Below are positions 1,946 to 55,456 of a stretch of DNA of 64,000 bases, in pieces. Where the stretch lies: positions 43,468-107,467 of IMG/VR virus record IMGVR_UViG_3300014204_000107. One strand, given 5' to 3'. Position 1 is the first letter of the stretch. Each line of letters begins with the position of its first letter. Made by a program: the position numbers and the translations under genes. The DNA comes from a virus. Lineage: Duplodnaviria > Heunggongvirae > Uroviricota > Caudoviricetes. The notes beneath the pieces were generated by a model. It was not told the origin of the DNA and searched no databases. It saw nothing but the letters and a program-made list of their open reading frames with translations.

Positions 1946-2497
1946 ATGAAAAGAGCAACATTAATGGGAAACAAGATTCCCTACGAATATTTCATTACCA
2001 AAGGAAAAGGTGAAAGTGATATCACAACCCACGCTGGATCTTATCATCTAGCGTTGAAAGAAGCTGGTATAGAAAAATTTAATATAATGACTTATTCGTC
2101 AATATTACCCAAACAAGCAAAACAAATTCCTAATTGCCCAAGATGGTTAACATTTGGCGCTGTAATGGATACCATAATGGCATGTGCAAATGGAACTAAA
2201 GGTGAAACTATTAGTGCTGGCATTATTACTGGCTGGTTATATGATACTAAGGATGTTAAATATGGCGGATTAGTATGTGAACACAATGGTAATATAGAAC
2301 CAGATAAATTGCGTACTAATCTTTATGCAAGTTTAATGGAATTATATGAAAATGGGTTCAAGCAAAAGGGTTATAATCTAAAGTATATAGATACAATGGT
2401 AGAATCAACAACAATAACAAAAGAATATGGTACGGTTTTATGTGCTATATGCTTTGTAAATTACTTATATCCAGTCTTTAAAAAAGAATTGGAATAG
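1946..2497 (+). CDS. pdaD: pyruvoyl-dependent arginine decarboxylase-like (PvlArgDC fold; self-cleavage-type NIMTYSSILP serine pair)
   Basis: HAGSYHLALKEAGIEKFNIMTYSSILP closely parallels the archaeal PdaD cleavage-site region (…AGIGNVNLIRISSIMP). Confidence 0.55.
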   Translation: MKRATLMGNKIPYEYFITKGKGESDITTHAGSYHLALKEAGIEKFNIMTYSSILPKQAKQIPNCPRWLTFGAVMDTIMACANGTKGETISAGIITGWLYDTKDVKYGGLVCEHNGNIEPDKLRTNLYASLMELYENGFKQKGYNLKYIDTMVESTTITKEYGTVLCAICFVNYLYPVFKKELE

Positions 2498-11433: not shown

Positions 11434-11622
11434 TTGAGTATGAGTTCAAGCAAACAACGTAATAGCATAGGATTAGGAACAATCTTATTTATTGTATTCT
11501 TAGTCTTAAAATTAACGCACGTAATTGATTGGTCATGGTGGTGGGTAACTGCCCCGTTATGGATTCCGATTGGAATAATGTTATTAATTATTGCATTAGT
11601 ATTAATATTTTTAAAACATTAA
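11434..11622 (+). CDS. small membrane protein
   Basis: ORF, two hydrophobic helices. Confidence 0.35.
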   Translation: MSMSSSKQRNSIGLGTILFIVFLVLKLTHVIDWSWWWVTAPLWIPIGIMLLIIALVLIFLKH

Positions 11623-11633
11623 GGAGAAATAAA

Positions 11634-12476
11634 ATGATAGAATTTCAAAGAGATAAAGATAGTTTGCTTGAATATCAATTTATTAAGAAATTAGATTTAA
11701 ACAAACCGCAATTAATAGTGGATTTACACTGCGTCTTGCAAGGTGAAGGCAAATTTATGGGCGTACCCCATATACTTATCAGATTTTCTGGTTGTAATAT
11801 GAACTGCATGTTTTCAGATTGGCTATGTGACACCAGTTATGCTTCGTGGCACGCAGAAGGTACAAAATATTCTATAAATGATGTAATAGAATTGCTATAT
11901 GCAAACCCGCATATTGATCACATAATGATTACTGGCGGAGAGCCTTTTCTTAATAAATCATTATTGCACACTATCACGCATTTAATAAAGACAATTGATA
12001 CACGGTATTGGATAACAGTTGAAACCAATGGTACCATGGGTTATTTTGATAGCAAAAACGAAGAGAATTTGCCAATCATAGACTTTATATCAATGTCACC
12101 AAAGCTGAAAAATTCAGTTCCTATTCCAGGTACTACTGCAATTGATCCATACGTCAGCAGAACAATTACCGAGCAAGACAAAATAAGGCACGAAGAATGG
12201 CGAACAAACTATAAAAACATGAATGAGATACTTGACCATTGTGCTGACTTTCAATTAAAGTTCGTTGTTACTACTGAAGACCAAATTGAAGAAATAGAAA
12301 CAGTGCGCCAAGCACTTGGTGTAGATATGGAAGATACTTATTTAATGCCAGAAGGAGTTACTGCTAACCAACTTGCTAAGAGAAGGCAATGGGTAATGGA
12401 AAAATGTATTGAAAAAGGTTATAAGTATAGTGACAGATTACATATTGTTTGCTACGGAAATGCTAGAACTGCTTAA
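11634..12476 (+). CDS. queE: QueE-like radical-SAM enzyme (7-carboxy-7-deazaguanine synthase family) with atypical Cx3Cx6C cluster motif followed by CDTSYASW and ITGGEPF
   Basis: GCNMNCMFSDWLCDT and ITGGEPFLN motifs; GGAG-like RBS upstream of the internal Met chosen as start. Confidence 0.5.
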   Translation: MIEFQRDKDSLLEYQFIKKLDLNKPQLIVDLHCVLQGEGKFMGVPHILIRFSGCNMNCMFSDWLCDTSYASWHAEGTKYSINDVIELLYANPHIDHIMITGGEPFLNKSLLHTITHLIKTIDTRYWITVETNGTMGYFDSKNEENLPIIDFISMSPKLKNSVPIPGTTAIDPYVSRTITEQDKIRHEEWRTNYKNMNEILDHCADFQLKFVVTTEDQIEEIETVRQALGVDMEDTYLMPEGVTANQLAKRRQWVMEKCIEKGYKYSDRLHIVCYGNARTA

Positions 12477-12488
12477 TACGCGTAAACA

Positions 12489-13298
12489 ATGGAAGTCTTT
12501 ATACCAGAATTAAAAAAACAATACACTATTGCTAGAGATTGGCATATATTATTATATCCATTTAATGGAATGCCACAATGGGTGTATGGGCAAAGCAAGT
12601 ATGATTACATTCAATTAGATGAAGAACATCCTATTTATACAACTACTCTTTATGCTGAAAGTAAAGCAAACTTACAAGTTATAACCGATGTAAAATGCAT
12701 AAAATTTATTGATAATAAATCATTTTGGCAACAAGATAGCCATAAAGTATATGATTATTTTTTAGTGACAGATAAAGACTTTGCTTTTGTTGAACATCTT
12801 ATTAATAGCCCCTTTGATTTAATGGGGTTGGACAACGATGATAATATATATCTTATTGTCTCTGACCCCATTCATAGAGTAAATGTTGAATTTAAATTAT
12901 TTTGTGCAGAGGAATTCAAAAGAAATTATGATTGGTACCCTAATAAAGCTGAAAGAAACTATTGGAATTCGATAAAAACAATATCTAGATTTGCACATTC
13001 AGTAGATGAACGATTTAAAGTGTATGAAGATTGCAAGCTTGAAATAATTGACTATTATAACAAAGTATTAGCCAGCGCAATTAAGCTTAATCCGTTATTT
13101 GATCCAGCAGTTAAGAATTATAGGTACTATGTGCCAATTAATTATACAATTAAATCCGGCAACTCAATTAAGATTAAAAAACTTGGTGTAAAACCAACAG
13201 GCAGAAGTAAATCAAAAGTACAATATGCTGAAATTGAAATCGGTGAATTTTCGCTAATTGTATTAATGTCCGATATTAATAATTTAATTTTAGTATAA
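12489..13298 (+). CDS. hypothetical protein
   Basis: ORF. Confidence 0.45.
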   Translation: MEVFIPELKKQYTIARDWHILLYPFNGMPQWVYGQSKYDYIQLDEEHPIYTTTLYAESKANLQVITDVKCIKFIDNKSFWQQDSHKVYDYFLVTDKDFAFVEHLINSPFDLMGLDNDDNIYLIVSDPIHRVNVEFKLFCAEEFKRNYDWYPNKAERNYWNSIKTISRFAHSVDERFKVYEDCKLEIIDYYNKVLASAIKLNPLFDPAVKNYRYYVPINYTIKSGNSIKIKKLGVKPTGRSKSKVQYAEIEIGEFSLIVLMSDINNLILV

Positions 13299-15697: not shown

Positions 15698-16201
15698 ATG
15701 AAAACATACACCAAAGAAGAATTAGATGAAATTTTAAAAAACCATTCTCTGTGGTTGGTTGATAGTACCACAGGAGAAAGAGCCAACCTCAGTTCTGCCA
15801 ACCTCCGTTCTGCCGACCTCAGTTATGCCGACCTCCGTTCTGCCAACCTCCGTTCTGCCGACCTCAGTTATGCCGACCTCCGTTCTGCCAACCTCCGTTA
15901 TGCCGACCTCAGTTATGCCAACCTCAGTTATGCCAACCTCCGTTCTGCCAACCTCAGTTATGCCGACCTCGACTTTTCGTGTTGGTCGCTGTCGTGTGAT
16001 TCCCTAAACGTAAATGTTGATGAAAAGCTGTTCTATCAATTGCTTTTTCATACCCTTTCGCTCAAAGGACTTTCCCAAAGCGAAGACTTCCGCAAGGTTT
16101 ACAAGACTTGTAAGGACATTGCCAACAAGTTTCATCGTACAGAAATAGCAAGATTGGAAGATTTGCCCGACCAGGCAGAAGCCGAAAGGGGGCAGAAATG
16201 A
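15698..16201 (+). CDS. pentapeptide-repeat protein (A[DN]L[SR]xA[DN]L tandem repeats) with C-terminal non-repeat domain
   Basis: About 19 consecutive pentapeptide repeats; N-terminus EL.EILKNHSLWL shared with 38275. Confidence 0.65.
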   Translation: MKTYTKEELDEILKNHSLWLVDSTTGERANLSSANLRSADLSYADLRSANLRSADLSYADLRSANLRYADLSYANLSYANLRSANLSYADLDFSCWSLSCDSLNVNVDEKLFYQLLFHTLSLKGLSQSEDFRKVYKTCKDIANKFHRTEIARLEDLPDQAEAERGQK

Positions 16202-18182: not shown

Positions 18183-18956
18183 ATGCTGGGAGCAATTTGC
18201 GGAGATATTATAGGTTCCAGATTTGAATGGAACCGCATTAAGACAACGGAGTTTGATTTATTTGCACCCGAATGCAAATTTACAGATGATACAGTATTAA
18301 CAGTAGCAGTTGCTGATAGCATAATGAGCAAGTTTGCCCCGGAAGATGTGTATAGGTATTGGTGCTTGACTAATTTAAACCGCGGCTATGGTGGTATGTT
18401 TAAGCATTGGATATATGGTATGATTGCAAAACCATATAATTCATTTGGTAATGGTAGTGCAATGCGCACATCTGCTGTTGGATGGTTTTATAATGATATT
18501 GATACTGTTATGGAACGCGCAGAGTATTTTGCTGCAATCACACATAACCACCCAGAAGGCATTAAAGGTGCACAAGCCGTATCAGTTGCTATATTTAAAG
18601 CAAGAACTGGTAGCACAAAGGATGAAATCAAGCAATACATAGAAGAACTATTTAACTATGATTTATCCAGAACAGTTGATAGTATAAGGTCCGATTATAA
18701 GTTTGATGAAACATGCCAAGGTTCGGTACCTGAATCTATAATTTGCTTTCTTGAAAGTACTGATTATGAAAGTGCGGTTAGGCTTGCCATTTCATTAGGT
18801 GGTGATGCAGATACTCAAGCAGCAATTGCTGGTAGTATTGCTGAAGCATTTTATGGCGGTGTGCCAAGGGATATAATTGCCAATGCTGCTGAATACCTAA
18901 CAGATGACATGAAGTACTTGATCAAAGAGTTTTATAAAACAATAAAAGAGAATTAA
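18183..18956 (+). CDS. ADP-ribosylglycohydrolase family protein (DraG/ARH3-like)
   Basis: N-terminal GAICGDIIGSRFE, TDDT, and C-terminal GGDADTQAAIAGSIAEAFYG motifs. Confidence 0.7.
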   Translation: MLGAICGDIIGSRFEWNRIKTTEFDLFAPECKFTDDTVLTVAVADSIMSKFAPEDVYRYWCLTNLNRGYGGMFKHWIYGMIAKPYNSFGNGSAMRTSAVGWFYNDIDTVMERAEYFAAITHNHPEGIKGAQAVSVAIFKARTGSTKDEIKQYIEELFNYDLSRTVDSIRSDYKFDETCQGSVPESIICFLESTDYESAVRLAISLGGDADTQAAIAGSIAEAFYGGVPRDIIANAAEYLTDDMKYLIKEFYKTIKEN

Positions 18957-33034: not shown

Positions 33035-33107
33035 GCATAGGTAGATTTAATTGGTAAAATCCCTTCATTTTAGGAGGAAGATGGTGGTTCGATTCCACCT
33101 CTATGCA
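33035..33107 (+). tRNA. tRNA-Lys (anticodon UUU), no encoded CCA
   Basis: 7-bp acceptor (GCATAGG/TCTATGC), D-arm GATT/AATC with GG loop, anticodon loop AUUUUAG (U33, A37), T-arm GGTGG-TTCGATT-CCACC; N26 register ambiguous. Confidence 0.55.
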
Positions 33108-33136
33108 CAAACAATAAACAATTTAAAAACTGCACG

Positions 33137-34707: not shown

Positions 34708-35112
34708 ATGTGTTTCACAGTACATTTTGACCACCAAGAGGCATTAACTGCTACTAAAAATATAGTTTGCTATAAAACTGGCCTTAAAAAAGGCTCAAAG
34801 TTTGAATCATATTGGAACGAGCATATTTATATTAAAAGAAAATTACAACCACATATTGAATTAGCAACCAATGTGCTTTCTATCATCCACGGGTACCATT
34901 CATTTACAACAAAAAAACGAGCTGTTGCGCAACTAGCTGTTGCGCAACTAGCAACAACTGAAATACTTGTTAAATGCGTTATACCGAAAGGTGCATTATA
35001 TTATTATAACCCAGATGCAAATGAATATGTATCAAGCACAATTATCTTTAAAAGATTCTTAAAAATAGCAATGTTATTAAATAAAATAGAGAATTATTTA
35101 AAAAGGAAATAA
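34708..35112 (+). CDS. hypothetical protein, paralogue of 39908-40348
   Basis: Shared GYH(S/A)(F/Y)TT and (V/I)IPKGA(L/E)YY(Y/H)NP…EYV motifs. Confidence 0.4.
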   Translation: MCFTVHFDHQEALTATKNIVCYKTGLKKGSKFESYWNEHIYIKRKLQPHIELATNVLSIIHGYHSFTTKKRAVAQLAVAQLATTEILVKCVIPKGALYYYNPDANEYVSSTIIFKRFLKIAMLLNKIENYLKRK

Positions 35113-38274: not shown

Positions 38275-39180
38275 ATGACAACAACAGAATTAAAAACTAT
38301 TTTATCTAATCATAAATTATGGTTAAATGGTAAAAAAAATGGAGTTTGTGCCGATTTAGGAGGTGTTGATTTAAGCGGTGCTAATTTAAGCAATGCTAAT
38401 TTAAGATATGCTAATTTACGCGGTGCTAATTTAAGCTATGCTAATTTAAGATGTGCTAATTTAAGCGGTGCTAATTTAAGCGGTGCTAATTTAAGCAATG
38501 CTAATTTACGCGGTGCTAATTTAAGCAATGCTAATTTAAGCAATGCTAATTTACGCGGTGCTGATTTAAGCGGTGCTGATTTAAGCGATGCTGATTTAAG
38601 CAATGCTGATTTAAGCAATGCTGATTTAAGCAATGCTGATTTAAGCAATGCTGATTTAAGCAATGCTGATTTAAGCAATGCTGATTTAAGCAATGCTAAT
38701 TTAAGCGGTGCTAATTTAAGCGGTGCTAATTTAGGCGGTGCTGATTTAAGCGGTGCTAATTTACGCGGTGCTAATTTACGCGGTGCTAATTTAAGATATA
38801 CTAATTTAAGCGGTGCTAATTTAAGCAATGCTAATTTACAAAATATTTTAATTAATGAATTATCAGCGTTCATACCATTATCGTGCCCCGAGGAAGGAAG
38901 TTTTATTGCATTTAAAACCGCGCAGAATCATATTATTAAATTATTAATACCAGAAGACGCAAAACGGAGTTCGGCAACATCATATAAATGTAGAGCATCA
39001 AAGGCAAAAGTACTTGAAATTAGTGATGAACTATCAAGCATACAATCTGATTATGATAACAACTTTGTCTATGCTGTTGGTGAAACAATTGAAGTAGATA
39101 ATTTTGATGAGTGTAGATGGAATGAATGCTCAACTGGAATACACTTTTTTATGTCTAAAGAACTTGCAAGGCAATATTAA
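38275..39180 (+). CDS. pentapeptide-repeat protein (about 35 A[ND]L[SR]xA repeats) with C-terminal globular domain
   Basis: Tandem pentapeptide repeats; N-terminal [13 protein letters not shown] shared with 15698. Confidence 0.65.
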
Positions 39181-39907: not shown

Positions 39908-40348
39908 ATGTGCTTTTTCATACCAAAAAATGCAACCAAGCAAATAGCAATTCAAGATATTGAATGCTATAAATATGGATATTATTATAAACAAAACAAC
40001 CCAGAACTGTATAAACATGCATTTCTAACTCGGCCATTCTGGAGATATGTAAAGGGAATCAGCAAACAAATAGAAGTATTTGATTCACCTGTATTTGATC
40101 ATATATGGTTTAAGAATAAACTGCAACCAACGGTTAAGCTTAATATTGATATAAAAGATAATGTAATATTGGATGGATACCATGCATATACTACATATGA
40201 TAATGTAGTGGTAGCGTATGGGACATGCCCGCGGGTTAATATTAAAATCGGAAAATTTATAATACCCAAAGGAGCAGAATATTACCACAATCCAGAAATA
40301 GAACAATATGTGGCAACCCAAATGATATTTATAGATTTTATAGAATAA
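39908..40348 (+). CDS. hypothetical protein, paralogue of 34708-35112
   Basis: Shared motifs. Confidence 0.4.
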   Translation: MCFFIPKNATKQIAIQDIECYKYGYYYKQNNPELYKHAFLTRPFWRYVKGISKQIEVFDSPVFDHIWFKNKLQPTVKLNIDIKDNVILDGYHAYTTYDNVVVAYGTCPRVNIKIGKFIIPKGAEYYHNPEIEQYVATQMIFIDFIE

Positions 40349-41758: not shown

Positions 41759-41809
41759 CTTATGATTGTCAAGCAGAAATTGCAACCAAGCAATCCTAAT
41801 AACTAATAT

Positions 41810-42103
41810 ATGCAATGGTTTGTTTATATAGTAGAATGCAATGATAATACCTTATATACAGGTATAACTAACAATATAGAGCTGCGCATACAAAAGCATA
41901 ATACAAAAAAAGGAGCAAAATATACGAAAGCAAGACTGCCAGTCAAACTAATATATAATCAAGAGTGTGCAAGCAAATCGGCAGCCCTAAAAGAAGAATA
42001 TAGAATCAAGCAACTAACAAAAAAGGAAAAGCTAGAATTAATAAGAAATTGCAACCAAACAACCCCAATATATGAACAAGGCAGTACAAATAACAATTAT
42101 TGA
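41810..42103 (+). CDS. GIY-YIG nuclease-domain protein (small stand-alone, YIVECNDNTLYTGITNN…R…H…KGAKYT)
   Basis: GIY…YIG core with conserved R, H, and KGAKYT. Confidence 0.55.
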   Translation: MQWFVYIVECNDNTLYTGITNNIELRIQKHNTKKGAKYTKARLPVKLIYNQECASKSAALKEEYRIKQLTKKEKLELIRNCNQTTPIYEQGSTNNNY

Positions 42104-42290
42104 AACAGAAGACTGGACATCCAGCACTCCAATAGGTAGGTATATTGTTATAGTAAAAGTAACACCAGAATTTATGCAGGAGCCAGAACATATTGTGAGC
42201 CACAGTGAAAAGGCAGAATATATAGCGCAAGAAATTAAAGAAGAATTCTTAAAGAAATTGCAACCGAGCAAGCCAACTACCACATATTAA
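42072..42290 (+). CDS. small hypothetical protein
   Basis: ORF. Confidence 0.35.
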   Translation: MNKAVQITIIETEDWTSSTPIGRYIVIVKVTPEFMQEPEHIVSHSEKAEYIAQEIKEEFLKKLQPSKPTTTY

Positions 42291-43005
42291 TAAAAACCTA
42301 GAAATTGCAACCAAACTATATAATTTGGAAATTGCAACCAATTACCTAATATACAATAAGGTAATAATATTATAGCAAATAACTAAATACCAAGAAATTG
42401 CAACCAACAAGAATTTGCAACCAACCAACTAATCCATACCGTATAAATGACAGTAGGTAAATAGTACAAATAGCCTGCTCCAGAAATTGCAACCAACGTA
42501 AAAATCAATAGGTTGGGGAGACGGAGGACGGTGTCTGGCTTGACTGTGCATCTTTATTCAAGCGTCTACCTAATAAGACCACGACCGACCTAACCATTTA
42601 AATTGCATAACCAGTTTTAGCTGTTACGCATATAGCGGTAACCACATAGCAATAATGTCGCGGATGCATATTATTCTTCCAGCCTAATTGCAGTAGGTAG
42701 CTCGTGTTTCTTCCATATGTTATATTATACGCTATATCTATTACACTAAATAGAACGTAATAGTTTGCGTTATTGCTATAGGTGTCCTGCACCCATCCCG
42801 GAATAGATTATTCCTCGGTGTCTGCACATTGCGTTAAGTTGCTTTAATTGTGTTAGAAAACTGCGTCTTTCATACTGTTGTTCTATTGTATAAGGTAAAG
42901 GTAGGAAGAATAGTTGAGATACACAAATTTAATTTTATGCTTCGTTAGTGTTGCTTGGTGTAGGTTTATATAGTGCTATAGAAGCATAGCAGATAGATTT
43001 GGTAG

Positions 43006-43053: not shown

Positions 43054-43293
43054 ATGAAAGTAAAAGTTGAAGAAACGGGTAAACCCGTATTGATCCCAAT
43101 GTGTGATATGGAACCTGGGCAAATGGCAGTTGTTGTTGACGATATGGCCGGCGACAATAACAGAGACTCTATTATACTGCGCACAGAGAAAGCAATAGCT
43201 GACTTTATGGACCCTTTGCTCGATTGGGAAATAGACTGTGAATTCAAAGTGAGAATCCTTCCCAAAGGCACCAAGATTGAAATTACTGCATAA
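43054..43293 (+). CDS. small protein, tandem paralogue family member 1 (MKVKVEETGKPVLIPM…ILRTEKAIADF…LPKGTKIEITA)
   Basis: Four tandem paralogues. Confidence 0.4.
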   Translation: MKVKVEETGKPVLIPMCDMEPGQMAVVVDDMAGDNNRDSIILRTEKAIADFMDPLLDWEIDCEFKVRILPKGTKIEITA

Positions 43294-43310
43294 CAAATTA
43301 ACCCAAACAA

Positions 43311-43550
43311 ATGAAAGTAAAAATTAAAGGAGAGGCTAAACCCGCATTGATCCCAATGTATGAAATGGTGCGTGGCCAGATCGCTAGAATTGTTGATACG
43401 TGCGCCGATAGTTATAACGGTTCTATCGTATTACGCAGTGAGAAAACTATTGTCGATTTAAAATCTCATCACGTAGATTGGTGCATGACATGCACTTATA
43501 AAGTAGAACTGTTGCCAGCCGGCACGGTCATTGAATTAACCGTTGAATAA
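43311..43550 (+). CDS. tandem paralogue 2
   Basis: Shared MKVKIKGEAKPALIPM…VLRSEKTIVDL…LLPAGTVIELTV. Confidence 0.4.
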   Translation: MKVKIKGEAKPALIPMYEMVRGQIARIVDTCADSYNGSIVLRSEKTIVDLKSHHVDWCMTCTYKVELLPAGTVIELTVE

Positions 43551-43558
43551 AAAAAAAT

Positions 43559-43798
43559 ATGAAAGCAAAAATAGTAAAAGAGGCTGCGCCTGCAGTCATG
43601 AAGATGAATGAACTTAAACCAGGACAGGTCGCTAAGATCAATGACCCTGATATTGGCCCCCACCATATGGGCAAAGTTATACTACGGACACAGCATTCAT
43701 TGGTTGATTTAGATGATCCAATTATAGATTTCTGCTTAGGAGCCGGTTGGGATGTAGAATTGCTCCCCGCTGGGACGGTTATCAAAATTACAGTCTAA
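43559..43798 (+). CDS. tandem paralogue 3
   Basis: Shared motifs. Confidence 0.4.
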   Translation: MKAKIVKEAAPAVMKMNELKPGQVAKINDPDIGPHHMGKVILRTQHSLVDLDDPIIDFCLGAGWDVELLPAGTVIKITV

Positions 43799-44064: not shown

Positions 44065-45034
44065 GCATTAGTGCTAATTCGATTTTTTATTTTTGGAAGA
44101 CTATATATTATAGAATAGGGTATCTGTGGTATTATACCAGCGCACCTTAATGCTAAGCTATCGTTAAGGGTTAATGCGGGTACATAAAGAGGCTAGCGAA
44201 TGCCATTACGCTATATTAATGTTGCCGTAACAGCGGGTGCGTTAGTCCTGCTCGGGCCGTTGGTAGACAGGCGAAACGTTTTTTGTAGTGTGGCGGCTAT
44301 AAATCGTATGGGGCCAGACTTAGATACGCTGGTTGCAGATCTAAGCATATACCACATTTAATGGGTGGCTTTATTATTTGGTAAGCAGGGTTGCCAGCCT
44401 TGTATGTTGCATATAATCATTGAAATATGCTAGTGTAACTCATGCAAGCAATGAGGTTTAGGTATAGCATGGCTACCAACTGTGTATGTTGCGCGTATAA
44501 CATTTATAAAACGTGATAGTTTGCATGTTTGCTCGATAAAACATTGCATATACATTGCGCTAGCTGCATGAATTTTGAATCATCGGCTAGATATTTCTGT
44601 CTTTGGTCGTTGCATAATATGCTATAAAATACTATACACAATAGATTTATAGTTTAGAAGGGGTATTGGATATATTTTCGGCAAAATTTCTTAAAAAATA
44701 TGATAATAAAAACTCAGGGCGCGCGGATATTTTTACTCATATAAGATAGTTCCTATGCTCGATTTGAATAGTATTTAGTGTGCGCATATAGCCGATATGG
44801 GAAAATAATCAAATAATTTCATTTCGCGGGATTTTTAATACTGTTGGTATATGTGCTTCGGTATTTGCTGGATTGCTACAGATATTTAGAAAAGTTTGAT
44901 AAAAAAATGCCATGGTCGATAAAAATTAATTCGAGCGTTCTTATTGCGTTATATAATAGAATCGAAGTTATGGTTGGCGCGTGGCTGTATGCGTACGCAT
45001 GTGCGTGTACATATAATATAGGTGCACCAAAAAT

Positions 45035-45085
45035 AATTTGGTATTCTGGTATAATTTACTTACCTTTATTCTATAACAATAAAAG
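45035..45085 (+). promoter_or_regulatory. recurring promoter/leader motif (TTTGGTAT…CTTACCTTTATTCTATAACAATAAA)
   Basis: Motif; precedes ATG 45095. Confidence 0.45.
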
Positions 45086-45094
45086 ACAATTTAA

Positions 45095-45341
45095 TATGAA
45101 AACAAATTTTAGACCTATTTACGAAATTGCTCGCGAGATAAGGAGTGATTGGAAAAACGTATATTATGGCGCCGTGCCATATTTGGATGCTATGCGTTCC
45201 ATAACAAACATAACCGATGCTTATTATGCTGACTCAGCAAAAAGCGTTGTGTTGTATTTCCTTGCCAATGCCAATACCTGGAAAGGTGAGGTTGCTCGCA
45301 GAATTAAGAAAGAATTAAATGATATGTGCAAATACAGGTAA
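45095..45341 (+). CDS. small hypothetical protein
   Basis: Start chosen downstream of promoter motif (ORF-track ORF begins 44844). Confidence 0.35.
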
Positions 45342-46698: not shown

Positions 46699-46906
46699 TA
46701 GCATTAGCCACTCTATAATATGCAAATAGAGCAAAGGTAAGTAAAATTTTCGATATTATGTTAATGGTGTTGAATTTTTACTTACCTTTATATTATGGCA
46801 TTGAAGGTTACAATAAAATGTAACCGTCCGTGGGGATAACGCGAAAATAATAACGCTGGAAAGTTCAATTCTTTCCCTTGCCACAAAGAACAAAATAAAA
46901 TAAAAT

Positions 46907-48330: not shown

Positions 48331-50958
48331 ATGAACAATCCTATCACAAAGAAAGGTACCTTTAAGTACGCAATTTCTGACTTTTGGTTATCCGAAAGCA
48401 CAAAGCGTATTTTAGAAGACTATGAACCGAAGGAGCATGCCTTTTATGTACGGGGTATGATTAAGAAAGCGGTGGAAGACTTTATTCGTATTATCAATAA
48501 CGGTGATGGCTCCGTGAAGGTTACATATAGGACTGATGGCAGTGAAACGTCATACAGTTCGGCCAACGCTATTGAATGTAAGAGTGTATGCGTCCAGTCT
48601 GATATATTTGACTTAGATGTTACCGTAGGTCTTGCTTTACATGAGGCAATGCACATCCGTGATACTATCTTTGTCACTATCAACCCATTGTTCCAATCCT
48701 TTCTTTTAAAGCATGATTGTAGTGATTTAATTATTGCTCATTTAGTTGATGCATATATCGACTTCCTGCATGATGAAATGATGTATGACTATGCTTATAT
48801 TGCAAGGAAGCTGACTGGGCAGTCAATGTCATATTTTGACATTACCAATGCAGTTACTGCCGCAATTACCAAGCACACTAATAAAGTTACTTTAAATAGC
48901 ATGTTCCAGAGTAGTGGTTATGTAAGAATGCGTAACTGTTACGAAAGAATAAACAAGCTTTCCAATGGCAAAGAGCTGTTGCCAAAGATTCTTAAAATAA
49001 CTGGCGGCATACTTAATTGGATCGAGGATCGTAGGATTGACCATAAAGCTAGTGTTATTGCTCCCGGCTATGTTGGCTATTATGATGCATTATACGATAA
49101 GTATTTCTTTGCACCAAACATGCGTGATATTGTAAAAAATAACATTACAAACGTGCCAACCCTTAAGCATTACGAATTATACATCACAAACTTATGGGAA
49201 TCGCAGAAATATGTTAACGAAGTCCCAGCATTAGGTGATATTGTTAAAGCCATTGATCTTCCGAATATTGGCAGGCTTGAAGACACTATTGATTCATTAG
49301 CTCTCACCTTCGAAGTAATGGCAATCATTCTCGAAGAAATGCTTTCACGTAAGAAGAAAGAAGAACAGGAGCCTGCAGAAAAAGAAACGAAGAAAGATAA
49401 GCTTGGAGAAAGCAAAGATGGCAAACGTGAAGAGAACGACAGTAATGACAATACTGAAATCGATAACGAAAATAGCGAAGACGGCCCTTCTAAAGAAGAT
49501 GATGACGAAAGCGAACCAAGCAATAAAGACAACAAATTCGATACAGAGATTGAAGAAGCTGGCGATGACAATGTTACTGCTGACGAGTTTGACGAAAACA
49601 ACGAAGACGCCCCAGAAGATAACTACGAAGACGCCCCAGAAGATAACTACGAAGATAACTACGAAGGTAACGACGAAAGTCCCGACCATACAGAAAACGA
49701 TGGTAGTGAGGTAGAACATACTGATGATGATACTTCTGGCACTGAAACTGCTGAAGACGATATTACTGATGCAGTAGTTCCCGACAATGATACTGAAAAT
49801 AGCAATACTACTGAAGGAGACAACGGCGATGAATCAAATAGTGCCGGTTCCAATGGTGGTAATGATTTAGACAGTTTTCCTGCTGAAGACAACAATATCA
49901 TTGATGACGAAGCAGACAAAATGCTTGGAGAGCAAAAGAAATTTGCTGAAGGTGATATCGAGCGTTCTGACGTTAATGAAATGGAGGAGAAGATTATTAA
50001 TGCTACCGCTACTGGCGATGTGGATTTGAGAGTATCAAAGGATGGTGCCAACCGCAATGTTAGTTATGTTTGCAATAACTTTAACAAGCAGAACGTAGAG
50101 ATGCTCAGTAATATGTGCGAATGTGTTAGTATGTGGACAACAGAAGACTCACGCGAGCAGCAAAATATCCTGAAAGCGCTGAAATATGGTGAAAAACTTG
50201 CACAGTTGATTACTATTCGCAACGAAGACAGGGAACTGGTTAATCCTAACCAGGAAAGCGGTAAAGTATTCAAAAGGCACCTTTACAAAATTGCTGGACA
50301 TAATAGTAAGGTTTTCTATAGCGTTCTCAGTGAAAACTTTGAACCCGTAACTATGCACATTTCAATTGACGCAAGTGGTTCAATGGCCTCTGGGTCAAGC
50401 TTTAGCAATGCTATTTTTATGGCCGTTGCTTTAGCAGTAGTTGCTGACAAGACTAAGAATGTTGAAGTTGTTATTTCATTCCGCGGTGAATCTTCTGGTA
50501 AATACAGAAGCGCATTTACTTCGGGTGCTGAATACAGCACTAAAGGAAAGATTCCTTTTATGTTGATTGCATATGATAGCCGCGTTGATAAACTTTCTAA
50601 AATCAAGCAAGTATTTAGGTATATCCATGCTAACAGTTACACTCCTGAAGGACTTTGTTTTGCCGCCATTTTGGAAGAACTCATTGAATACAGCAAAGAT
50701 TCAAGGTCTTACTTTATCAACATTAGTGATGGTATGCCGTGTTTCTACGAATATGCTGGGCAGAAGGCGTTAGAACATACAAGGAAACAAGTCGATAAAA
50801 TGCGCAAGGCAGGCATCAATATTATGGCATTTTTTATTGGCAATGAATATGGGCTTTCTAATTTTAAATATATGTATGGTAAGGATGCTACCAATATAGA
50901 CGTTACAAATTTGAGAAGACTTGCTAATAACATTAACCAATTATTATTGAAAAAATAG
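48331..50958 (+). CDS. CobT-like protein: N-terminal domain, long acidic low-complexity linker (EDAPEDNYEDAPEDNYEDNYE), C-terminal vWA with MIDAS (ISIDASGSM)
   Basis: Architecture typical of cobaltochelatase CobT-like vWA partners of MoxR/CobS AAA+ ATPases. Confidence 0.5.
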   Translation: MNNPITKKGTFKYAISDFWLSESTKRILEDYEPKEHAFYVRGMIKKAVEDFIRIINNGDGSVKVTYRTDGSETSYSSANAIECKSVCVQSDIFDLDVTVGLALHEAMHIRDTIFVTINPLFQSFLLKHDCSDLIIAHLVDAYIDFLHDEMMYDYAYIARKLTGQSMSYFDITNAVTAAITKHTNKVTLNSMFQSSGYVRMRNCYERINKLSNGKELLPKILKITGGILNWIEDRRIDHKASVIAPGYVGYYDALYDKYFFAPNMRDIVKNNITNVPTLKHYELYITNLWESQKYVNEVPALGDIVKAIDLPNIGRLEDTIDSLALTFEVMAIILEEMLSRKKKEEQEPAEKETKKDKLGESKDGKREENDSNDNTEIDNENSEDGPSKEDDDESEPSNKDNKFDTEIEEAGDDNVTADEFDENNEDAPEDNYEDAPEDNYEDNYEGNDESPDHTENDGSEVEHTDDDTSGTETAEDDITDAVVPDNDTENSNTTEGDNGDESNSAGSNGGNDLDSFPAEDNNIIDDEADKMLGEQKKFAEGDIERSDVNEMEEKIINATATGDVDLRVSKDGANRNVSYVCNNFNKQNVEMLSNMCECVSMWTTEDSREQQNILKALKYGEKLAQLITIRNEDRELVNPNQESGKVFKRHLYKIAGHNSKVFYSVLSENFEPVTMHISIDASGSMASGSSFSNAIFMAVALAVVADKTKNVEVVISFRGESSGKYRSAFTSGAEYSTKGKIPFMLIAYDSRVDKLSKIKQVFRYIHANSYTPEGLCFAAILEELIEYSKDSRSYFINISDGMPCFYEYAGQKALEHTRKQVDKMRKAGINIMAFFIGNEYGLSNFKYMYGKDATNIDVTNLRRLANNINQLLLKK

Positions 50959-50965
50959 CAAATAT

Positions 50966-51012
50966 ATTTGGTGAGCTTATTATTTCTTCCTACCTTTATT
51001 TTGTAACAATTA
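50966..51012 (+). promoter_or_regulatory. recurring promoter/leader motif
   Basis: ATTTGGTGAGC…TTCTTCCTACCTTTATTTTGTAACAATTAAA before ATG 51024. Confidence 0.45.
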
Positions 51013-51023
51013 AATAAAACACC

Positions 51024-52514
51024 ATGTCAAAAGAATCAACATTAGTATTTCCTGTATCAACGGGTAATGCTGTATGGTTTATAAGCGACGACAGAAAAAC
51101 TATATTAGATGTCGTTGATCCCGGACAACAGAGAAAAGCAAAAGCCGCCGAGGCAGCTGGACAAGTTGGAATACTTGGGTGGCGCGGAAAAGTTGAAAGA
51201 GAAGTTAAAGTTAAATACATTGACAGAAGCGATCTTCGATTGTATTGGTGTGAAAATTTCACTGATTGGTTTTCGGCCATTTCATCTGATGCTGCATTAC
51301 TCTCTAATTTTAATAACAAATACAGCATTGCCAACTATTTAACTGACGGTGATGTTGATACGATGCTTAAGTTGGTTGACAACCATACAGCGGTAGTTGT
51401 ATCAGGGTTATCCGGCAATTCACAGCCGAAATCACAGAAAAAAGGTAGACCTGCTAAGAAAGCAAAGGTTTCAAATTCTGCCGGTACTGCTGCACAGATG
51501 AGAAATCAAGTGGCTGTAAGTGCTACAGTAAGTCCCGAAGATACAGCAACAGAAACTGAAGAGCTGGCGGAAGTAGCTCCTGCAGAACCGGCCAAGGCTA
51601 TCGACGTTGACTTAAGCTGTGAGAACATGGCTCAGCGACTTGCAAATTTTGCAATGGTAAAGCCCGAAGAGCTTATCATTAGCGATCTTAAATGGAAATT
51701 TTTAATCCGTTCGGTATTACGCGGAAAAAACATATTGGTAACTGGCCAGTCTGGCACAGGGAAGACCAAATCGATTAATTCAGTTGCAAAGCTGATGGTT
51801 GAAGATCACCCGTTATTCATTATTCCTTGCGGAAATACAACTGATGCAAAGAGTATTTTATTGGGCAATACCAAATACAGCCCCGAGAGAGGCACTTACC
51901 TTAGCGAATCTGAATTTGTGAAAGCAATCCAGACGCCCAATGCAATTGTATATCTTGACGAGTTTACGCGTTTACACCCGGATGGGCAGAATATATTAAT
52001 GACAGTGCTTGACCACACACAGAGGGAACTCGTATTGGACGAAGCTGAGGGATGTCCTACTATTAAAGTAGCACCTGGAGTGTGTTTCATGGCTACGGCA
52101 AATATTGGGAAACAGTATAGCGCTACAAGATCCATTGACCGTGCATTGTTAGACAGATTCAATGTTACTTTCGAAATGGAGCCATTAGAGATCATGCAGG
52201 AACTTGAACTTATCTTCATGGAATACGGCAAGCCCGCTATTAAGATGAGGAATGAAATTTGCAAGGTGCTTGACGTTATCGACTCCATTAGGAAAGACTA
52301 CAATAACGAAAATACTGAGCTTACAACCTTTATTAGCACAAGGCCAGTGCTTGAAATTGCTGGACTGTTGCTTGATGGGTTTAGCCCTCTTGAATGCATT
52401 GAAGTATGTATTTATCCGTTATACAGCGACGATGGTGGAACCGAAAGTGAACGTGCATTGGTAAAGAAGATAGTACAAAAAGCAGGCTTTGCTCCTGCTG
52501 ATCAAACGATATAA
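51024..52514 (+). CDS. CobS/MoxR-like AAA+ ATPase (Walker A GQSGTGKTKS, Walker B YLDEFTRLHPDGQNILMTVLD) with ~200-aa N-terminal extension
   Basis: AAA_5/MoxR-type motifs; adjacent to vWA partner. Confidence 0.55.
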   Translation: MSKESTLVFPVSTGNAVWFISDDRKTILDVVDPGQQRKAKAAEAAGQVGILGWRGKVEREVKVKYIDRSDLRLYWCENFTDWFSAISSDAALLSNFNNKYSIANYLTDGDVDTMLKLVDNHTAVVVSGLSGNSQPKSQKKGRPAKKAKVSNSAGTAAQMRNQVAVSATVSPEDTATETEELAEVAPAEPAKAIDVDLSCENMAQRLANFAMVKPEELIISDLKWKFLIRSVLRGKNILVTGQSGTGKTKSINSVAKLMVEDHPLFIIPCGNTTDAKSILLGNTKYSPERGTYLSESEFVKAIQTPNAIVYLDEFTRLHPDGQNILMTVLDHTQRELVLDEAEGCPTIKVAPGVCFMATANIGKQYSATRSIDRALLDRFNVTFEMEPLEIMQELELIFMEYGKPAIKMRNEICKVLDVIDSIRKDYNNENTELTTFISTRPVLEIAGLLLDGFSPLECIEVCIYPLYSDDGGTESERALVKKIVQKAGFAPADQTI

Positions 52515-52586
52515 TTAGTGTTTACTAATTGTTACGTGCAAGCGCTGGCTAGACTTTATTGTTTAGCCGGCGTAAGCATGACCAGA

Positions 52587-52622
52587 CATTTGGTAGGTAG
52601 AGAAATTATACTTACCTTTATT
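52587..52622 (+). promoter_or_regulatory. recurring promoter/leader motif
   Basis: TTTGGTAGGTAGAGAAATTATACTTACCTTTATTATATG. Confidence 0.4.
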
Positions 52623-52624
52623 AT

Positions 52625-52780
52625 ATGAAAAACACGAAGTTGACCATATCCAAAGAACAGGCATATATTGCCCACAAGACTGCTTCCCGCAGAGTTGAAA
52701 TGGAAGAAGGACTTCGTAGACCTACACATTCTGTGCATAAAAATATGAAAGCTTATTCACGCAAAATTAAACATAAATAA
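52625..52780 (+). CDS. small basic protein (51 aa, below ORF-track cut-off)
   Basis: ATG 3 nt after promoter/leader motif; Lys/Arg rich. Confidence 0.3.
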   Translation: MKNTKLTISKEQAYIAHKTASRRVEMEEGLRRPTHSVHKNMKAYSRKIKHK

Positions 52781-53260: not shown

Positions 53261-53375
53261 AATAAGCAAAGCCGGCAGGAAAAAAGGTTTATAGTACTTT
53301 GGTAGAAATCTGAAACCTTGCAATACCCATTAAGATCGACAGTAGCTACCAACAGCCGGCTATGCATTATAATAA

Positions 53376-53425
53376 ATTTGTTTGCCCGGTATAAATTACT
53401 TACCTTTATTCTATAACAATAAATA
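53376..53425 (+). promoter_or_regulatory. recurring promoter/leader motif
   Basis: TTTGTTTGCCCGGTATAAATTACTTACCTTTATTCTATAACAATAAA; followed by a 40-aa membrane mini-ORF (53432-53554). Confidence 0.4.
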
Positions 53426-53564
53426 AAAGAAATGTGTCCAACAATTTTAGGAATTACCATTGGAGTATTTGTATGCATTCTAGCAGTAGGTCTTGCTGTT
53501 TGGTTTACACGGAAATTGGAAGATGAATGTGACGATGATATAATGATTTTTTAACAATAAGAAC

Positions 53565-53889: not shown

Positions 53890-54720
53890 GACGAAATACT
53901 GTCCAGAACCTATAATCCCGGAAAAGGCAATATTGCCGCAAAACTTAGATTGTTTATACACCATTTAAAAGGAGGACGCAATGGAACCACCCGGTTAGTT
54001 TAGCTTTATATATTATTATTTTATTTTGATCTTTGACATCTTGTGAATTAGTAGGTTACCATGTAGTGCTCATACTTGAATGCTTTACATACGTCCCTCG
54101 CCTCCCTGTTGTATCGTGGTTTGACCGCCATTGTTGGCCACTTTGGTTCCGATAACTGTATGAACTTCATAGACGCATACGCTTTCTGTTGTCCATAGTT
54201 CTTGGCACGCATGGAAATAACCTATTAGCTTGGATTGGCGCTGTTACTATTCCGAAATGGTAACGGGGCCTTAACAAGCACCAGTGCATAATATGCGCGT
54301 TCTCGTAAGTGCAGCCATTTATTTTCCGCCGGCCGCTCTACATTAGTAGCATGGGACCGAGCTCCGTGGCCGAATCGAGTTAAATAGCTACGCATATATG
54401 TATTGCCAGAGTGGCTGGTACCCCACTCACTCAGTTTGCTTGTAGGGAAGTAAAACCTGCAAGGTACCACATTCCGAGAAAAGGCAATACACACTGGTTT
54501 TCACGAGTGTTGATACATCTAACCCTGCCGGGGCCTAATAAAGTGGCCTTTGGTGGGGTTTTCTGTTTTAGATCGATTCTTATGACTATTTTATAGTAGA
54601 TGATGTCAGGTATGTGGTTTATATGAACGTCGAGCAGACCTCACCATTTTGATTCAAATCCAACTTTACAGATATTGGTTAGAACCAAATACTACAAACA
54701 GTATTGCAATCTAAGCAATA
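53890..54720 (+). ncRNA. ORF-free GC-elevated island directly downstream of a promoter motif; candidate large structured ncRNA
   Basis: No + strand ORF of 60 aa or more in 830 nt of an otherwise gene-dense genome; only short - strand junk ORFs; local GC clearly above flanks. Confidence 0.3.
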
Positions 54721-54725
54721 AAATA

Positions 54726-54772
54726 TATTTGGTAGTTTGATATAATTTACTTACCTTTACATATAAACAATA
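54726..54772 (+). promoter_or_regulatory. recurring promoter/leader motif
   Basis: TTTGGTAGTTTGATATAATTTACTTACCTTTACATATAAACAATAA before ATG 54779. Confidence 0.45.
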
Positions 54773-54778
54773 ACAGGC

Positions 54779-54955
54779 ATGATTTTAAAAATTGAATTTG
54801 GTGACGAAGACCTTGCTTCCTTAGCGGAAGAAAATGGACTGTCAATTGCCGACATGGTAACGGTTCTTGAGGAAATTGCAATGGATGCACTGTCTGATGA
54901 TTATGGCATTGCAGAAGCAGCAAGTGGTTATGCTGAACGAATTAAAGAAGAATAA
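54779..54955 (+). CDS. small acidic protein (58 aa, below ORF-track cut-off)
   Basis: ATG right after promoter/leader motif. Confidence 0.3.
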   Translation: MILKIEFGDEDLASLAEENGLSIADMVTVLEEIAMDALSDDYGIAEAASGYAERIKEE

Positions 54956-55202: not shown

Positions 55203-55392
55203 GACATACAAGGATTGGATTATATGGGGCAAAAAGGTTACAGATAAGTATATTGCTGGCAAGCAATTCATCCCCGATCCCAGTGAATACAAGGACATGG
55301 TAATTGATGCCGTTTTGGAGGAGTTGCCAAGTGTTGATAACCTTACCTATAGCGAGCTGTCAAAGGCTTATAACGAGCTAAACAGGCAATAA
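55192..55392 (+). CDS. small hypothetical protein
   Basis: ORF. Confidence 0.35.
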   Translation: MKNKTYKDWIIWGKKVTDKYIAGKQFIPDPSEYKDMVIDAVLEELPSVDNLTYSELSKAYNELNRQ

Positions 55393-55397
55393 AACTG

Positions 55398-55448
55398 ATT
55401 TGGTAGGTAGAGAAATTATACTTACCTTTATTCTATAACAATAAACAA
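55398..55448 (+). promoter_or_regulatory. recurring promoter/leader motif
   Basis: TTTGGTAGGTAGAGAAATTATACTTACCTTTATTCTATAACAATAAA before ATG 55457. Confidence 0.45.
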
Positions 55449-55456
55449 ATAACAAA

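What the first reader, a model, noticed from the sequence alone, without database searches (positions are those of the whole stretch)
11634..12476. Lone QueE-like radical-SAM gene with non-canonical Cx3Cx6C cluster motif
GCNMNCMFSDWLCDTSYASW followed by ITGGEPFLN matches QueE (CxxxCxxCDT…) except for a 4-residue insertion (FSDW) between the second and third Cys. QueE in phages usually belongs to 7-deazaguanine DNA-modification clusters (FolE/QueD/QueC/DpdA). None of those is visible within +/-10 kb here. Either the rest of the pathway is elsewhere, supplied by the host, or this enzyme has a different substrate.
Basis: partly seen in the sequence, partly recalled or inferred. Interest (0 to 1): 0.5.

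Follow-up and report, generated by a model that had tools for sequence, protein, structure and literature searches.

The report
Ordinary phage QueE, pathway partners unseen
This gene is an intact copy of QueE, the enzyme that builds the 7-deazaguanine ring phages use to disguise their DNA; its odd cysteine spacing is normal for its branch of the family, and its isolation from partner genes has a precedent in another giant phage.

Summary
Window 11634-12476 (+) encodes a 280-aa radical-SAM protein with GCNMNCMFSDWLCDT, i.e. Cx3Cx6C. It is QueE-like by every test: the top five NCBIfam hits are QueE models, PHROG 2076 matches full length (2.8e-43), the only PDB sequence hits at E <= 0.001 are the three QueE structures, and an AF2 model (pLDDT 91) matches B. 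subtilis QueE best. All known QueE catalytic residues are kept.

The motif is not special. 118 of the 120 closest homologues have Cx3Cx6C. Cellulophaga phi13:1 and Flavobacterium immuto QueE have Cx3Cx7C, and Vibrio phage phi-Grn1 QueE has Cx3Cx40C. All three phages carry deazaguanine-modified DNA.

The isolation is real and unusual. No QueD, FolE, QueC, QueF or DpdA lies within 21 kb upstream or 62 kb downstream. In contrast, 75 of 80 IMG/VR loci of this clade have QueD or FolE within 10 kb.

The window is 64 kb of a ~299-kb jumbo-phage contig, and 216 kb could not be read. In phi-Grn1, QueE sits at least 77 kb from its QueD-FolE-QueF-QueC cluster.

Most likely this is a working CDG synthase whose partners lie elsewhere in the genome, or less likely are supplied by the host. 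It is a new member of a known kind, of low to moderate interest.

The parts
11634..12476 (+). QueE-like radical-SAM CDS (280 aa plus stop); predicted 7-carboxy-7-deazaguanine (CDG) synthase
   Evidence: ORF and sequence. PHROG 2076 'QueE-like' at 2.8e-43 over residues 34-278. Top five NCBIfam hits are all QueE models. PDB phmmer hits at E <= 0.001 are the three QueE structures only. AF2 model pLDDT 91, with best Foldseek match B. subtilis QueE 5th5 at E 9.7e-12.
11621..11627 (+). Shine-Dalgarno-like AAGGAGA, 6 nt upstream of the ATG; it overlaps the stop codon of the preceding 62-aa ORF
   Evidence: Read directly from the sequence.
11739..11750 (+). Q36-G37-E38-G39, the QGEG substrate-binding motif (Q13/E15 of E. 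coli and B. multivorans QueE)
   Evidence: Invariant in a 62-sequence family alignment. Residue roles come from PMC11142719 and PMC8124187.
11790..11834 (+). Cluster-binding loop G53-C54-NMN-C58-MFSDWL-C65-D66-T67 (Cx3Cx6C followed by the QueE-type Asp-Thr; Thr is the Mg ligand position)
   Evidence: C54, C58, C65 and D66 are invariant in the family. 118 of 120 closest homologues have the same spacing. A 4-residue gap against B. subtilis QueE falls exactly here.
11931..11945 (+). T100-G101-G102-E103-P104, the SAM-binding GGE motif
   Evidence: G101 and G102 are invariant; T100 and P104 are nearly invariant. G94 of E. coli QueE, a predicted SAM-binding residue, is assigned to this motif from my own recall of the E. 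coli sequence, not from an alignment run here (residue role).
12021..12032 (+). E130-T-N-G133; E130 aligns with B. multivorans QueE Glu116 of the proposed proton relay
   Evidence: Aligned to 'iETNGs' of 4njg. E130 and G133 are invariant. Residue role from PMC8124187.

Best explanation
The gene encodes a functional QueE (7-carboxy-7-deazaguanine synthase). It belongs to a clade found mainly in phages, especially flavobacterial phages, and in some Bacteroidota and Ignavibacteria genomes.

The three cysteines C54, C58 and C65 hold a [4Fe-4S] cluster that reductively cleaves SAM. The resulting 5'-deoxyadenosyl radical drives the Mg-dependent ring contraction of 6-carboxy-tetrahydropterin (CPH4) to CDG. 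The four extra residues between Cys2 and Cys3 are a clade-typical lengthening of the cluster-binding loop. They do not mark a different chemistry.

The gene sits in a ~299-kb jumbo-phage genome. I infer that it works in a 7-deazaguanine pathway that ends in modified phage DNA, which protects against restriction. I also infer that the genes supplying CPH4 (FolE, QueD) and using CDG (QueC or DpdL, DpdA) lie outside the 83 kb I could read, as they do in the jumbo Vibrio phage phi-Grn1.

Shown here: family, fold, conserved catalytic residues, clade-wide motif, and absence of partners in 83 kb. Inferred: enzymatic activity, partners elsewhere, and DNA as the final target.
For: Identity as QueE:
- The top five NCBIfam hits are the five QueE models.
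- PHROG 2076 'QueE-like' matches full length at 2.8e-43.
- The only PDB sequence hits at E <= 0.001 are the three QueE structures, 6nhl, 5tgs and 4njg; the remaining four hits up to E = 1 have E of 0.045-0.067.
- An AF2 model (pLDDT 91, pTM 0.89) finds QueE chains as its top five Foldseek hits. The best is 5th5 at E 9.7e-12 with TM 0.71. The next family, PFL-AE, is at 9.6e-7.

Catalytic residues:
- Q36, E38, R50, T67 and E130 correspond to Q13, E15, R27, T40 (Mg) and Bm-E116.
- C54, C58, C65, the TGGEP motif and the SPK motif are also present.
- All 24 invariant and 31 near-invariant family positions are kept.

The motif is clade-typical:
- 118 of the 120 closest homologues have x6 spacing.
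- Among 80 IMG/VR loci, 30 have x6, 43 have x7 and 2 have x2.
- phi13:1 and immuto QueE have x7, and phi-Grn1 QueE has x40.
- These phages carry dDG, fdPreQ1 and dPreQ1 DNA respectively (PMC10516641).

Genomic context of relatives:
- The nearest homologues, P0006 and P0002 (53-54% identity), lie in QueD-QueE-FolE clusters. MazG and a DUF5591 (ArcS2-type) gene accompany the P0006 cluster, and QueF the P0002 cluster.

Precedent for scattered genes:
- In phi-Grn1 (248.6 kb), QueE is at 11.6 kb. QueD, FolE, QueF and QueC are at 178.6-183.3 kb. That is 166 kb away, or about 77 kb across the genome ends.

Not a recent insertion:
- Gene GC is 34.8% and GC3 is 29.2%, equal to the window means of 34.9% and 28.1%.
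Against: - No partner gene was found in 83 kb. The rest of the genome was never seen, so 'partners elsewhere' is inference from one precedent.
- In this clade, isolation is rare. 75 of 80 IMG/VR loci have QueD or FolE within 10 kb, and the other 5 are cut within 2.4 kb of a contig end.
- A database search with the closest relative's QueD listed no hit from a 299-kb contig. Only the top 120 hits (over 51% identity) are shown, so this is weak evidence.
- Scores against every curated QueE model are far below cut-off (61 bits against 300), so no curated rule would name it QueE.
- The E. coli Q189 (SAM-binding) position may be Met in this clade. This rests on my own reading of the LMPEG motif, not on an alignment run here.
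- No activity has been measured for any member with x6 spacing.
Confidence: 0.6

Rival explanations
1. True orphan. The phage encodes only the radical-SAM step. It relies on the host's FolE and QueD for CPH4 and on the host's QueC and later enzymes. This would raise flux to preQ0 and queuosine-tRNA, or feed a phage transglycosylase that cannot be recognised by homology.
For: - No partner gene in 83 kb, and none from this contig in the QueD database search.
- The gene is fully conserved and matches the genome in composition, so it is maintained.
- Hutinet et al. describe 48 phages with preQ0-pathway genes but no DpdA. They propose these phages boost host Q, and note that the hosts all have the full Q pathway (PMC6884629).
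- Bacteria carry this QueE clade unlinked to other que genes (P0096 context).
Against: - 72% of the genome is unseen.
- No fully flanked IMG/VR locus of this clade lacks both QueD and FolE.
- In phi-Grn1 an equally 'lone' QueE belongs to a complete pathway.
- There is no evidence that QueE is the limiting step in any host.
Confidence: 0.28
2. Neofunctionalised enzyme. The lengthened cluster loop and the solitary position mark a QueE-derived radical-SAM enzyme that acts on another pterin- or purine-like substrate.
For: - Scores are below every curated QueE cut-off.
- There are small lineage-specific insertions at residues 123-124 and 140-144, and an N-terminal extension.
- The gene is isolated from QueD and FolE.
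Against: - Every residue known to bind CPH4, Mg or act in the proton relay is conserved, and all family-invariant positions are kept.
- The same loop length occurs in QueEs embedded in QueD-QueE-FolE clusters.
- Relatives with canonical spacing also score below the curated cut-offs, so low scores reflect the divergence of the clade, not of this gene.
Confidence: 0.07
3. It is a glycyl-radical-enzyme activase (NrdG or PFL-AE type), not a QueE.
For: NrdG2 is the sixth NCBIfam hit (37.5 bits, 1.4e-9), close behind the weakest QueE model. PFL-AE is the sixth Foldseek hit.
Against: - Scores are 37.5 bits against a cut-off of 131 for NrdG2, and 18.8 against 126 for NrdG.
- Those matches cover only the N-terminal cluster region (residues 41-136). 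The QueE-like PHROG covers residues 34-278.
- QueE-specific motifs are present: QGEG, CDT, ETNG, SPK and the C-terminal RLH.
- No Pfam family of a glycyl-radical enzyme (NrdD or PFL) was listed for any called gene in the parts of the 83 kb that have Pfam listings; no dedicated search for one was run.
Confidence: 0.02
4. A moonlighting role like that of E. coli QueE, which blocks cell division when overproduced. Here it would be used by the phage to arrest the host.
For: E. coli QueE inhibits septation independently of catalysis (PMC11142719).
Against: That function maps to an E45-W67 two-helix region specific to enterobacterial QueE. [quoted passage not shown] Nothing equivalent is seen here; the region after C65 is short. 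Full conservation of the catalytic residues argues for selection on catalysis.
Confidence: 0.02

Closest known systems
[quoted passage not shown]
   Same: These are the best GenBank phage matches (32% identity, 92-98% coverage). They fall in the same clade with the same C-terminal motifs and also have a lengthened Cys2-Cys3 loop, Cx3Cx7C. Their virion DNA is fully substituted with dDG or fdPreQ1, so these QueEs work in vivo (PMC10516641).
   Different: Their QueE sits directly between QueD and FolE; here it stands alone. Their loop is one residue longer. Their genomes are 77 and 160 kb, against ~299 kb here.
Uncultured-phage QueEs P0002, P0003 and P0006 (metagenomic, 53-54% identity)
   Same: These are the closest sequences overall, with the identical Cx3Cx6C motif (GCNMNCQFSDW[VI]CDT).
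   Different: P0002 and P0006 are embedded in QueD-QueE-FolE clusters; MazG and a DUF5591 (ArcS2-type) gene accompany the P0006 cluster and QueF the P0002 cluster. The P0003 context was not examined.
QueE of Vibrio phage phi-Grn1 (Schizotequatrovirus, 248.6 kb)
   Same: It is a jumbo phage whose QueE lies far from the rest of the pathway, at 11.6 kb against 178.6-183.3 kb. It also has an insertion between Cys2 and Cys3. Its DNA contains dPreQ1 and mdPreQ1.
   Different: Identity is only 26%, and the insertion is 38 residues longer than canonical (Cx3Cx40C). Its full pathway is known; ours is not.
Structurally characterised QueE: B. subtilis (5th5/5tgs), E. coli (6nhl), B. multivorans (4njg)
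   Same: Same fold (Foldseek E 1e-11 to 3e-6). Same substrate, Mg and SAM residues.
   Different: Identity is about 20%. B. subtilis and E. coli QueE have Cx3Cx2C. B. multivorans has its extension between Cys1 and Cys2 (Cx14Cx2C; PMC4389238), whereas here the extension is between Cys2 and Cys3. No NCBIfam QueE model reaches its cut-off.

Membership tests
QueE (7-carboxy-7-deazaguanine synthase, EC 4.3.99.3) | Three-Cys radical-SAM [4Fe-4S] motif near the N-terminus | tested here: met
   C54, C58 and C65 are invariant across the family. The spacing is Cx3Cx6C rather than Cx3Cx2C. Pfam Radical_SAM scores 29.9 bits against a cut-off of 29.5.
QueE (7-carboxy-7-deazaguanine synthase, EC 4.3.99.3) | CPH4-binding residues (Q13, E15, R27 in E. 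coli numbering) | tested here: met
   Q36, E38 and R50 are present and invariant. Residue roles come from PMC11142719.
QueE (7-carboxy-7-deazaguanine synthase, EC 4.3.99.3) | Mg-binding Thr immediately after Cys3-Asp (the 'CDT' motif), and the Glu of the ETxG proton relay (Bm E116) | tested here: met
   C65-D66-T67 and E130-T-N-G are present.
QueE (7-carboxy-7-deazaguanine synthase, EC 4.3.99.3) | QueE-type minimal radical-SAM fold | tested here: met
   The AF2 model has pLDDT 91. Its top five Foldseek PDB hits are QueE chains, with 5th5 at E 9.7e-12 and TM 0.71.
QueE (7-carboxy-7-deazaguanine synthase, EC 4.3.99.3) | Score above a curated equivalog cut-off (TIGR04349, TIGR03963, TIGR04322, TIGR03365, TIGR04508) | tested here: not met
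   Scores are 61.4, 59.4, 52.9, 44.4 and 39.0 bits against cut-offs of 300, 260, 200, 206 and 240. The same is true of all eight clade relatives tested, including phi13:1 QueE. So the clade lies outside the curated models, rather than this gene being aberrant.
QueE (7-carboxy-7-deazaguanine synthase, EC 4.3.99.3) | Genomic association with QueD, FolE, QueC or DpdA | tested here: inconclusive
   Absent in the 83 kb read. Present around the closest homologues and in 75 of 80 IMG/VR loci. 216 kb of this genome was not readable.
QueE (7-carboxy-7-deazaguanine synthase, EC 4.3.99.3) | Conversion of CPH4 to CDG | not testable with these tools
   This needs an enzyme assay or complementation of a queE deletion.
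NrdG / PFL-AE glycyl-radical activases | Match to an activase model above cut-off, and a partner glycyl-radical enzyme | tested here: not met
   NrdG2 scores 37.5 bits against 131, NrdG 18.8 against 126, and PFLA 25.2 against 232. All matches cover only the N-terminal region. No Pfam family of NrdD or PFL was listed for any called gene in the parts of the 83 kb with Pfam listings; no dedicated search was run.

The most novel reading that the evidence does not exclude
The phage really has only QueE. A jumbo phage would then keep a single, fully conserved radical-SAM step. It would draw CPH4 from the host's folate and queuosine enzymes and hand CDG either to host enzymes or to a phage transglycosylase or decarboxylase that cannot be recognised by homology. 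That would be a one-gene hijack of deazaguanine metabolism, not described in the phage surveys read here.
Probability: 0.25. Interest if true: 0.5.

Novelty: new member of a known kind. Interest (0 to 1): 0.25.

Why it matters
As it stands, this is one more phage QueE, so it matters little for the biology of deazaguanine DNA. Two modest points go beyond the single gene.

First, the Cys2-Cys3 segment of the QueE cluster loop varies naturally. Spacings of 2, 6, 7 and 40 residues were seen here, in enzymes from phages with proven modified DNA. The only loop variant named in the papers I read is B. multivorans Cx14Cx2C, which lies between Cys1 and Cys2. None of the five NCBIfam QueE models captures this clade. 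Annotation pipelines will therefore under-call it, and motif-based radical-SAM screens that require CxxxCxxC will miss it.

Second, in jumbo phages a pathway gene can lie 77 kb or more from its partners. 'Lone gene' calls made from a window are therefore unreliable.

If the whole genome turns out to lack QueD, FolE and DpdA, the gene would become a more interesting single-step metabolic hijack.

Tried and rejected
1. I looked for the rest of the pathway in the unseen 216 kb. Four routes failed.
- A database search with the closest relative's QueD, looking for a hit whose longest contig is 299 kb. The list stops at 120 hits, all over 51% identical, and none was from this contig. Inconclusive.
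- A scan of the JGI metagenome collection with a 27-nt promoter-like motif that occurs 5 times in the window, hoping to pull in many loci of the same contig. It returned 21 unrelated contigs, so the 299-kb contig is not in that collection.
- A fused query of 16 window paralogues, to find paralogues elsewhere on the contig as anchors for look-ups. It returned nothing at all, not even self-hits. The search was wasted.
- Walking along the contig. Look-ups are allowed only for window proteins, so I gained just 10 kb at each end.

2. IMG/VR holds no close relative of this phage's QueE or of the downstream 269-aa ORF, so synteny in relatives could not be examined.

3. The downstream ORF (12489-13298) as a hidden partner. 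It has no Pfam or PHROG hit and no match to any DpdA, QueC or QueD profile. Rejected for lack of evidence.

4. QueD hit P0238, from a 296-kb contig, as a possible sister phage. It is a bacterial chromosome with a canonical Cx3Cx2C QueE of another clade.

5. A Bacteroidota-type promoter consensus (TTTG-N18-20-TAnnTTTG) as a host clue. There are 6 matches against 2.5 expected, and 4 of 100 shuffles reach 6. Not significant.

6. Sigma-70 promoter and terminator scans around the gene gave no more promoter-like sites than shuffled sequence and no informative signal.

7. The Dowling 2014 QueE structure paper and the 2024 MMBR review are not held in the library. Residue roles were taken from other papers.

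Full report
**What is there.** Window 11634-12476 (+) is an open reading frame of 280 codons. Its ATG is preceded by AAGGAGA, and it lies in a long run of tightly packed genes on the same strand. Public gene callers start it 99 nt upstream (313 aa, P0001). That start overlaps the preceding ORF, and homologues begin near residue 20-28, so 11634 is preferred. The protein contains G-C54-NMN-C58-MFSDWL-C65-D-T, i.e. Cx3Cx6C, followed by ITGGEPFLN.

**Which family.**
- Pfam recognises only a borderline Radical_SAM domain, at 29.9 bits against a cut-off of 29.5.
- In NCBIfam the five best hits are the five QueE models (61-39 bits). Next come NrdG2 (37.5) and many other radical-SAM families that match only the N-terminal cluster region. 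None reaches its curated cut-off.
- PHROG 2076, 'QueE-like radical SAM domain', matches residues 34-278 at 2.8e-43.
- Against all PDB sequences, the only hits at E <= 0.001 are the three solved QueEs from E. coli, B. subtilis and B. multivorans. Four further hits up to E = 1 (7wzv and four YydG/EpeE entries) have E of 0.045-0.067. The B. subtilis alignment puts a 4-residue gap exactly between Cys2 and Cys3.
- An AlphaFold2 model built on 62 family sequences is confident (pLDDT 91, pTM 0.89). Its lowest confidence is in the block holding the insertion.
- The model's five best Foldseek matches in the PDB are QueE chains, led by B. subtilis 5th5 at E 9.7e-12 and TM 0.71. PFL-activase follows five orders of magnitude behind.

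**Catalytic residues.** Published work assigns these roles in E. coli QueE: Q13, E15 and R27 bind substrate; C31, C35 and C38 bind the cluster; T40 binds Mg; G94, S136 and Q189 bind SAM (PMC11142719). E15 and E116 form a proton relay in the B. multivorans enzyme (PMC8124187). The window protein has Q36, E38, R50, C54, C58, C65, T67, the TGGEP motif, S155 in SPK, and E130 in ETNG. It keeps all 24 invariant and all 31 nearly invariant positions of its family. One possible departure is a clade-wide Met at the Q189 position; this is my own reading of the LMPEG motif and was not checked by an alignment here. I see no sign of decay or of a reshaped substrate pocket.

**The 'non-canonical' motif is the clade's norm.**
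- Of the 120 closest database proteins, 118 have Cx3Cx6C, one has Cx3Cx7C and one has the canonical Cx3Cx2C. The consensus is C-x3-C-[QM]-F-x-[DN]-[SW]-[FIL]-C-D-T.
- Among 80 IMG/VR loci of this clade, 30 have x6, 43 have x7 and 2 have x2.
- The QueEs of Cellulophaga phage phi13:1 and Flavobacterium phage immuto_2-6A have x7. Vibrio phage phi-Grn1 QueE has 40 residues between Cys2 and Cys3.
- The DNA of these phages contains dDG (all G replaced), fdPreQ1 and dPreQ1/mdPreQ1 respectively (PMC10516641). Long Cys2-Cys3 loops are therefore compatible with QueE function in vivo.
- In cellular genomes the clade appears in Ignavibacteria (x7, on contigs up to 624 kb) and in one Omnitrophota bin (x6). 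More distant relatives with canonical spacing occur in Verrucomicrobiota, Novosphingobium, Hyphomonas and Bacteroidota.
- One x6 homologue, P0096 (44% identity), sits among housekeeping genes on a 264-kb bacterial contig.
- All eight relatives tested also score below the NCBIfam QueE cut-offs, so the clade is simply not covered by the curated models.
- The only cluster-loop variant I found named in the literature is B. multivorans Cx14Cx2C, an extension between Cys1 and Cys2 (PMC4389238).

**Is it really alone?** The window is part of a ~299-kb contig (ENA ERZ27247350 k141_2421633, 299,185 bp; a near-identical 299,351-bp copy exists), evidently a jumbo phage. I extended the view by 10 kb at each end, giving 83,468 bp: 21 kb upstream and 62 kb downstream of the gene.
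- Single-sequence searches used QueD, FolE, QueC, Gat-QueC, DpdA, QueF, MazG and ArcS2 from phi13:1, immuto, phiSM, 9g and two metagenomic relatives.
- Profile HMMs were then built from these plus IMG/VR hits and run without filters.
- Neither approach found anything better than E = 0.1.
- Precomputed and fresh Pfam hits for genes in this span list none of the relevant families.

This isolation is unusual for the clade. The two closest homologues examined sit in QueD-QueE-FolE clusters. 75 of 80 IMG/VR loci have QueD (73) or FolE (69) within 10 kb. The five exceptions are all cut within 2.4 kb of a contig end. The gene's GC and GC3 equal the window averages, so it is not a fresh insertion.

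**Why I still favour 'partners elsewhere'.** In the 248.6-kb Vibrio phage phi-Grn1, QueE lies at 11.6-12.5 kb with nothing related nearby. My profiles found no partner in 1-24.4 kb or 198.6-248.6 kb, and the record's annotation lists none in 24.4-74.4 kb. QueD, FolE, QueF and QueC form a cluster at 178.6-183.3 kb. That is 166 kb away, or about 77 kb across the genome ends, which is farther than I could see here. Only 28% of the present genome was readable. All attempts to reach the rest failed. The orphan alternative remains open at roughly one chance in four. It has literature support as a concept: phages with preQ0-pathway genes but no DpdA have been proposed to boost host Q-tRNA, and their hosts have the full pathway (PMC6884629).

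**Verdict.** This is a bona fide, intact QueE of a phage-rich clade. Its extended Cys2-Cys3 spacing is ordinary for that clade. Its solitary position is uncommon but has a precedent in jumbo phages, and it cannot be interpreted without the rest of the genome. It is a new member of a known kind. Interest is low to moderate. It would rise if the full contig proves to lack QueD, FolE and DpdA.

Noticed in passing
window 57163-58095 and 59149-60687 (with 58502-59152 between): A ribose-phosphate-pyrophosphokinase-like gene (PHROG 619, 8e-73) and a NAMPT-family gene (Pfam NAMPT_N and NAPRTase) flank an endonuclease VII gene. From my own knowledge, this pairing resembles the phage NAD+-reconstitution pathway NARP1 (Adps plus Namat), which counters NAD-depleting defence systems. 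An ADP-ribosylglycohydrolase lies at 18183-18956, and a PARP-domain gene lies just past the window end.
   Followed up: partly
window 1946-2497; locus L005 11421-16227: The phage encodes a pyruvoyl-dependent arginine decarboxylase (PF01862). In a related metagenomic phage, arginase, deoxyhypusine synthase, a PS-decarboxylase-like gene and agmatine deiminase lie directly after its QueD-QueE-FolE cluster. This is a polyamine module next to DNA-modification genes, which could mean polyamine-type DNA hypermodification or polyamine supply.
   Followed up: no
window 26670-28118 and 33035-33108: A Ro60/TROVE plus vWA protein (Pfam TROVE 3e-19; PHROG 850 'RNA-binding protein'). About 5 kb downstream is a tRNA-like gene that ARAGORN calls with an abnormal two-base anticodon and Rfam calls tRNA (42.6 bits). 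It could be a Y-RNA-like partner of Ro60.
   Followed up: no
window 45012-45100, 46734-46820, 52564-52650, 53352-53440, 54703-54790, 55374-55460, 58078-58165: Seven copies of a ~45-nt conserved element (ATTTGGTAnnnnGnnAWWWW-TACTTACCTTTA-ttCTATAACAATAA), all on the + strand just upstream of genes and confined to 45-58 kb. It is probably a phage promoter plus leader for one temporal gene class. It loosely resembles the Bacteroidota TTTG/TAnnTTTG promoter, but the strict consensus is not enriched in the window.
   Followed up: partly
window 41776-42495: Seven direct copies of GAAATTGCAACC within ~720 bp of mostly non-coding DNA, next to a GIY-YIG gene (41810-42103). The array looks like iterons; it could be a replication origin or a regulator-binding array.
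   Followed up: no
window 43054-43798: Three tandem paralogous 79-aa genes (35-49% identical to one another) of unknown function. Other dispersed paralogue sets include 34708-35112 and 39908-40348, and 61681-62265 and 63580-63957.
   Followed up: no
window 15698-16201 and 38275-39180: Two pentapeptide-repeat proteins. The second also carries DUF5758. Their repeats cause the most frequent 12-16-mers in the window.
   Followed up: no
locus L194 11567-12451 (Vibrio phage phi-Grn1 QueE): This annotated QueE has about 40 residues between the second and third cluster cysteines (Cx3Cx40C), a very large cluster-loop insertion. I found no comment on it in the papers read here.
   Followed up: partly
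window 48331-52514: An 875-aa protein with no Pfam hit is followed by a MoxR/CbbQ-like AAA+ ATPase (AAA_5). The 875-aa protein's only GenBank phage relatives (28-29% identity) are in Microcystis phage Mel-JY01 and a 484-kb uncultured phage.
   Followed up: no
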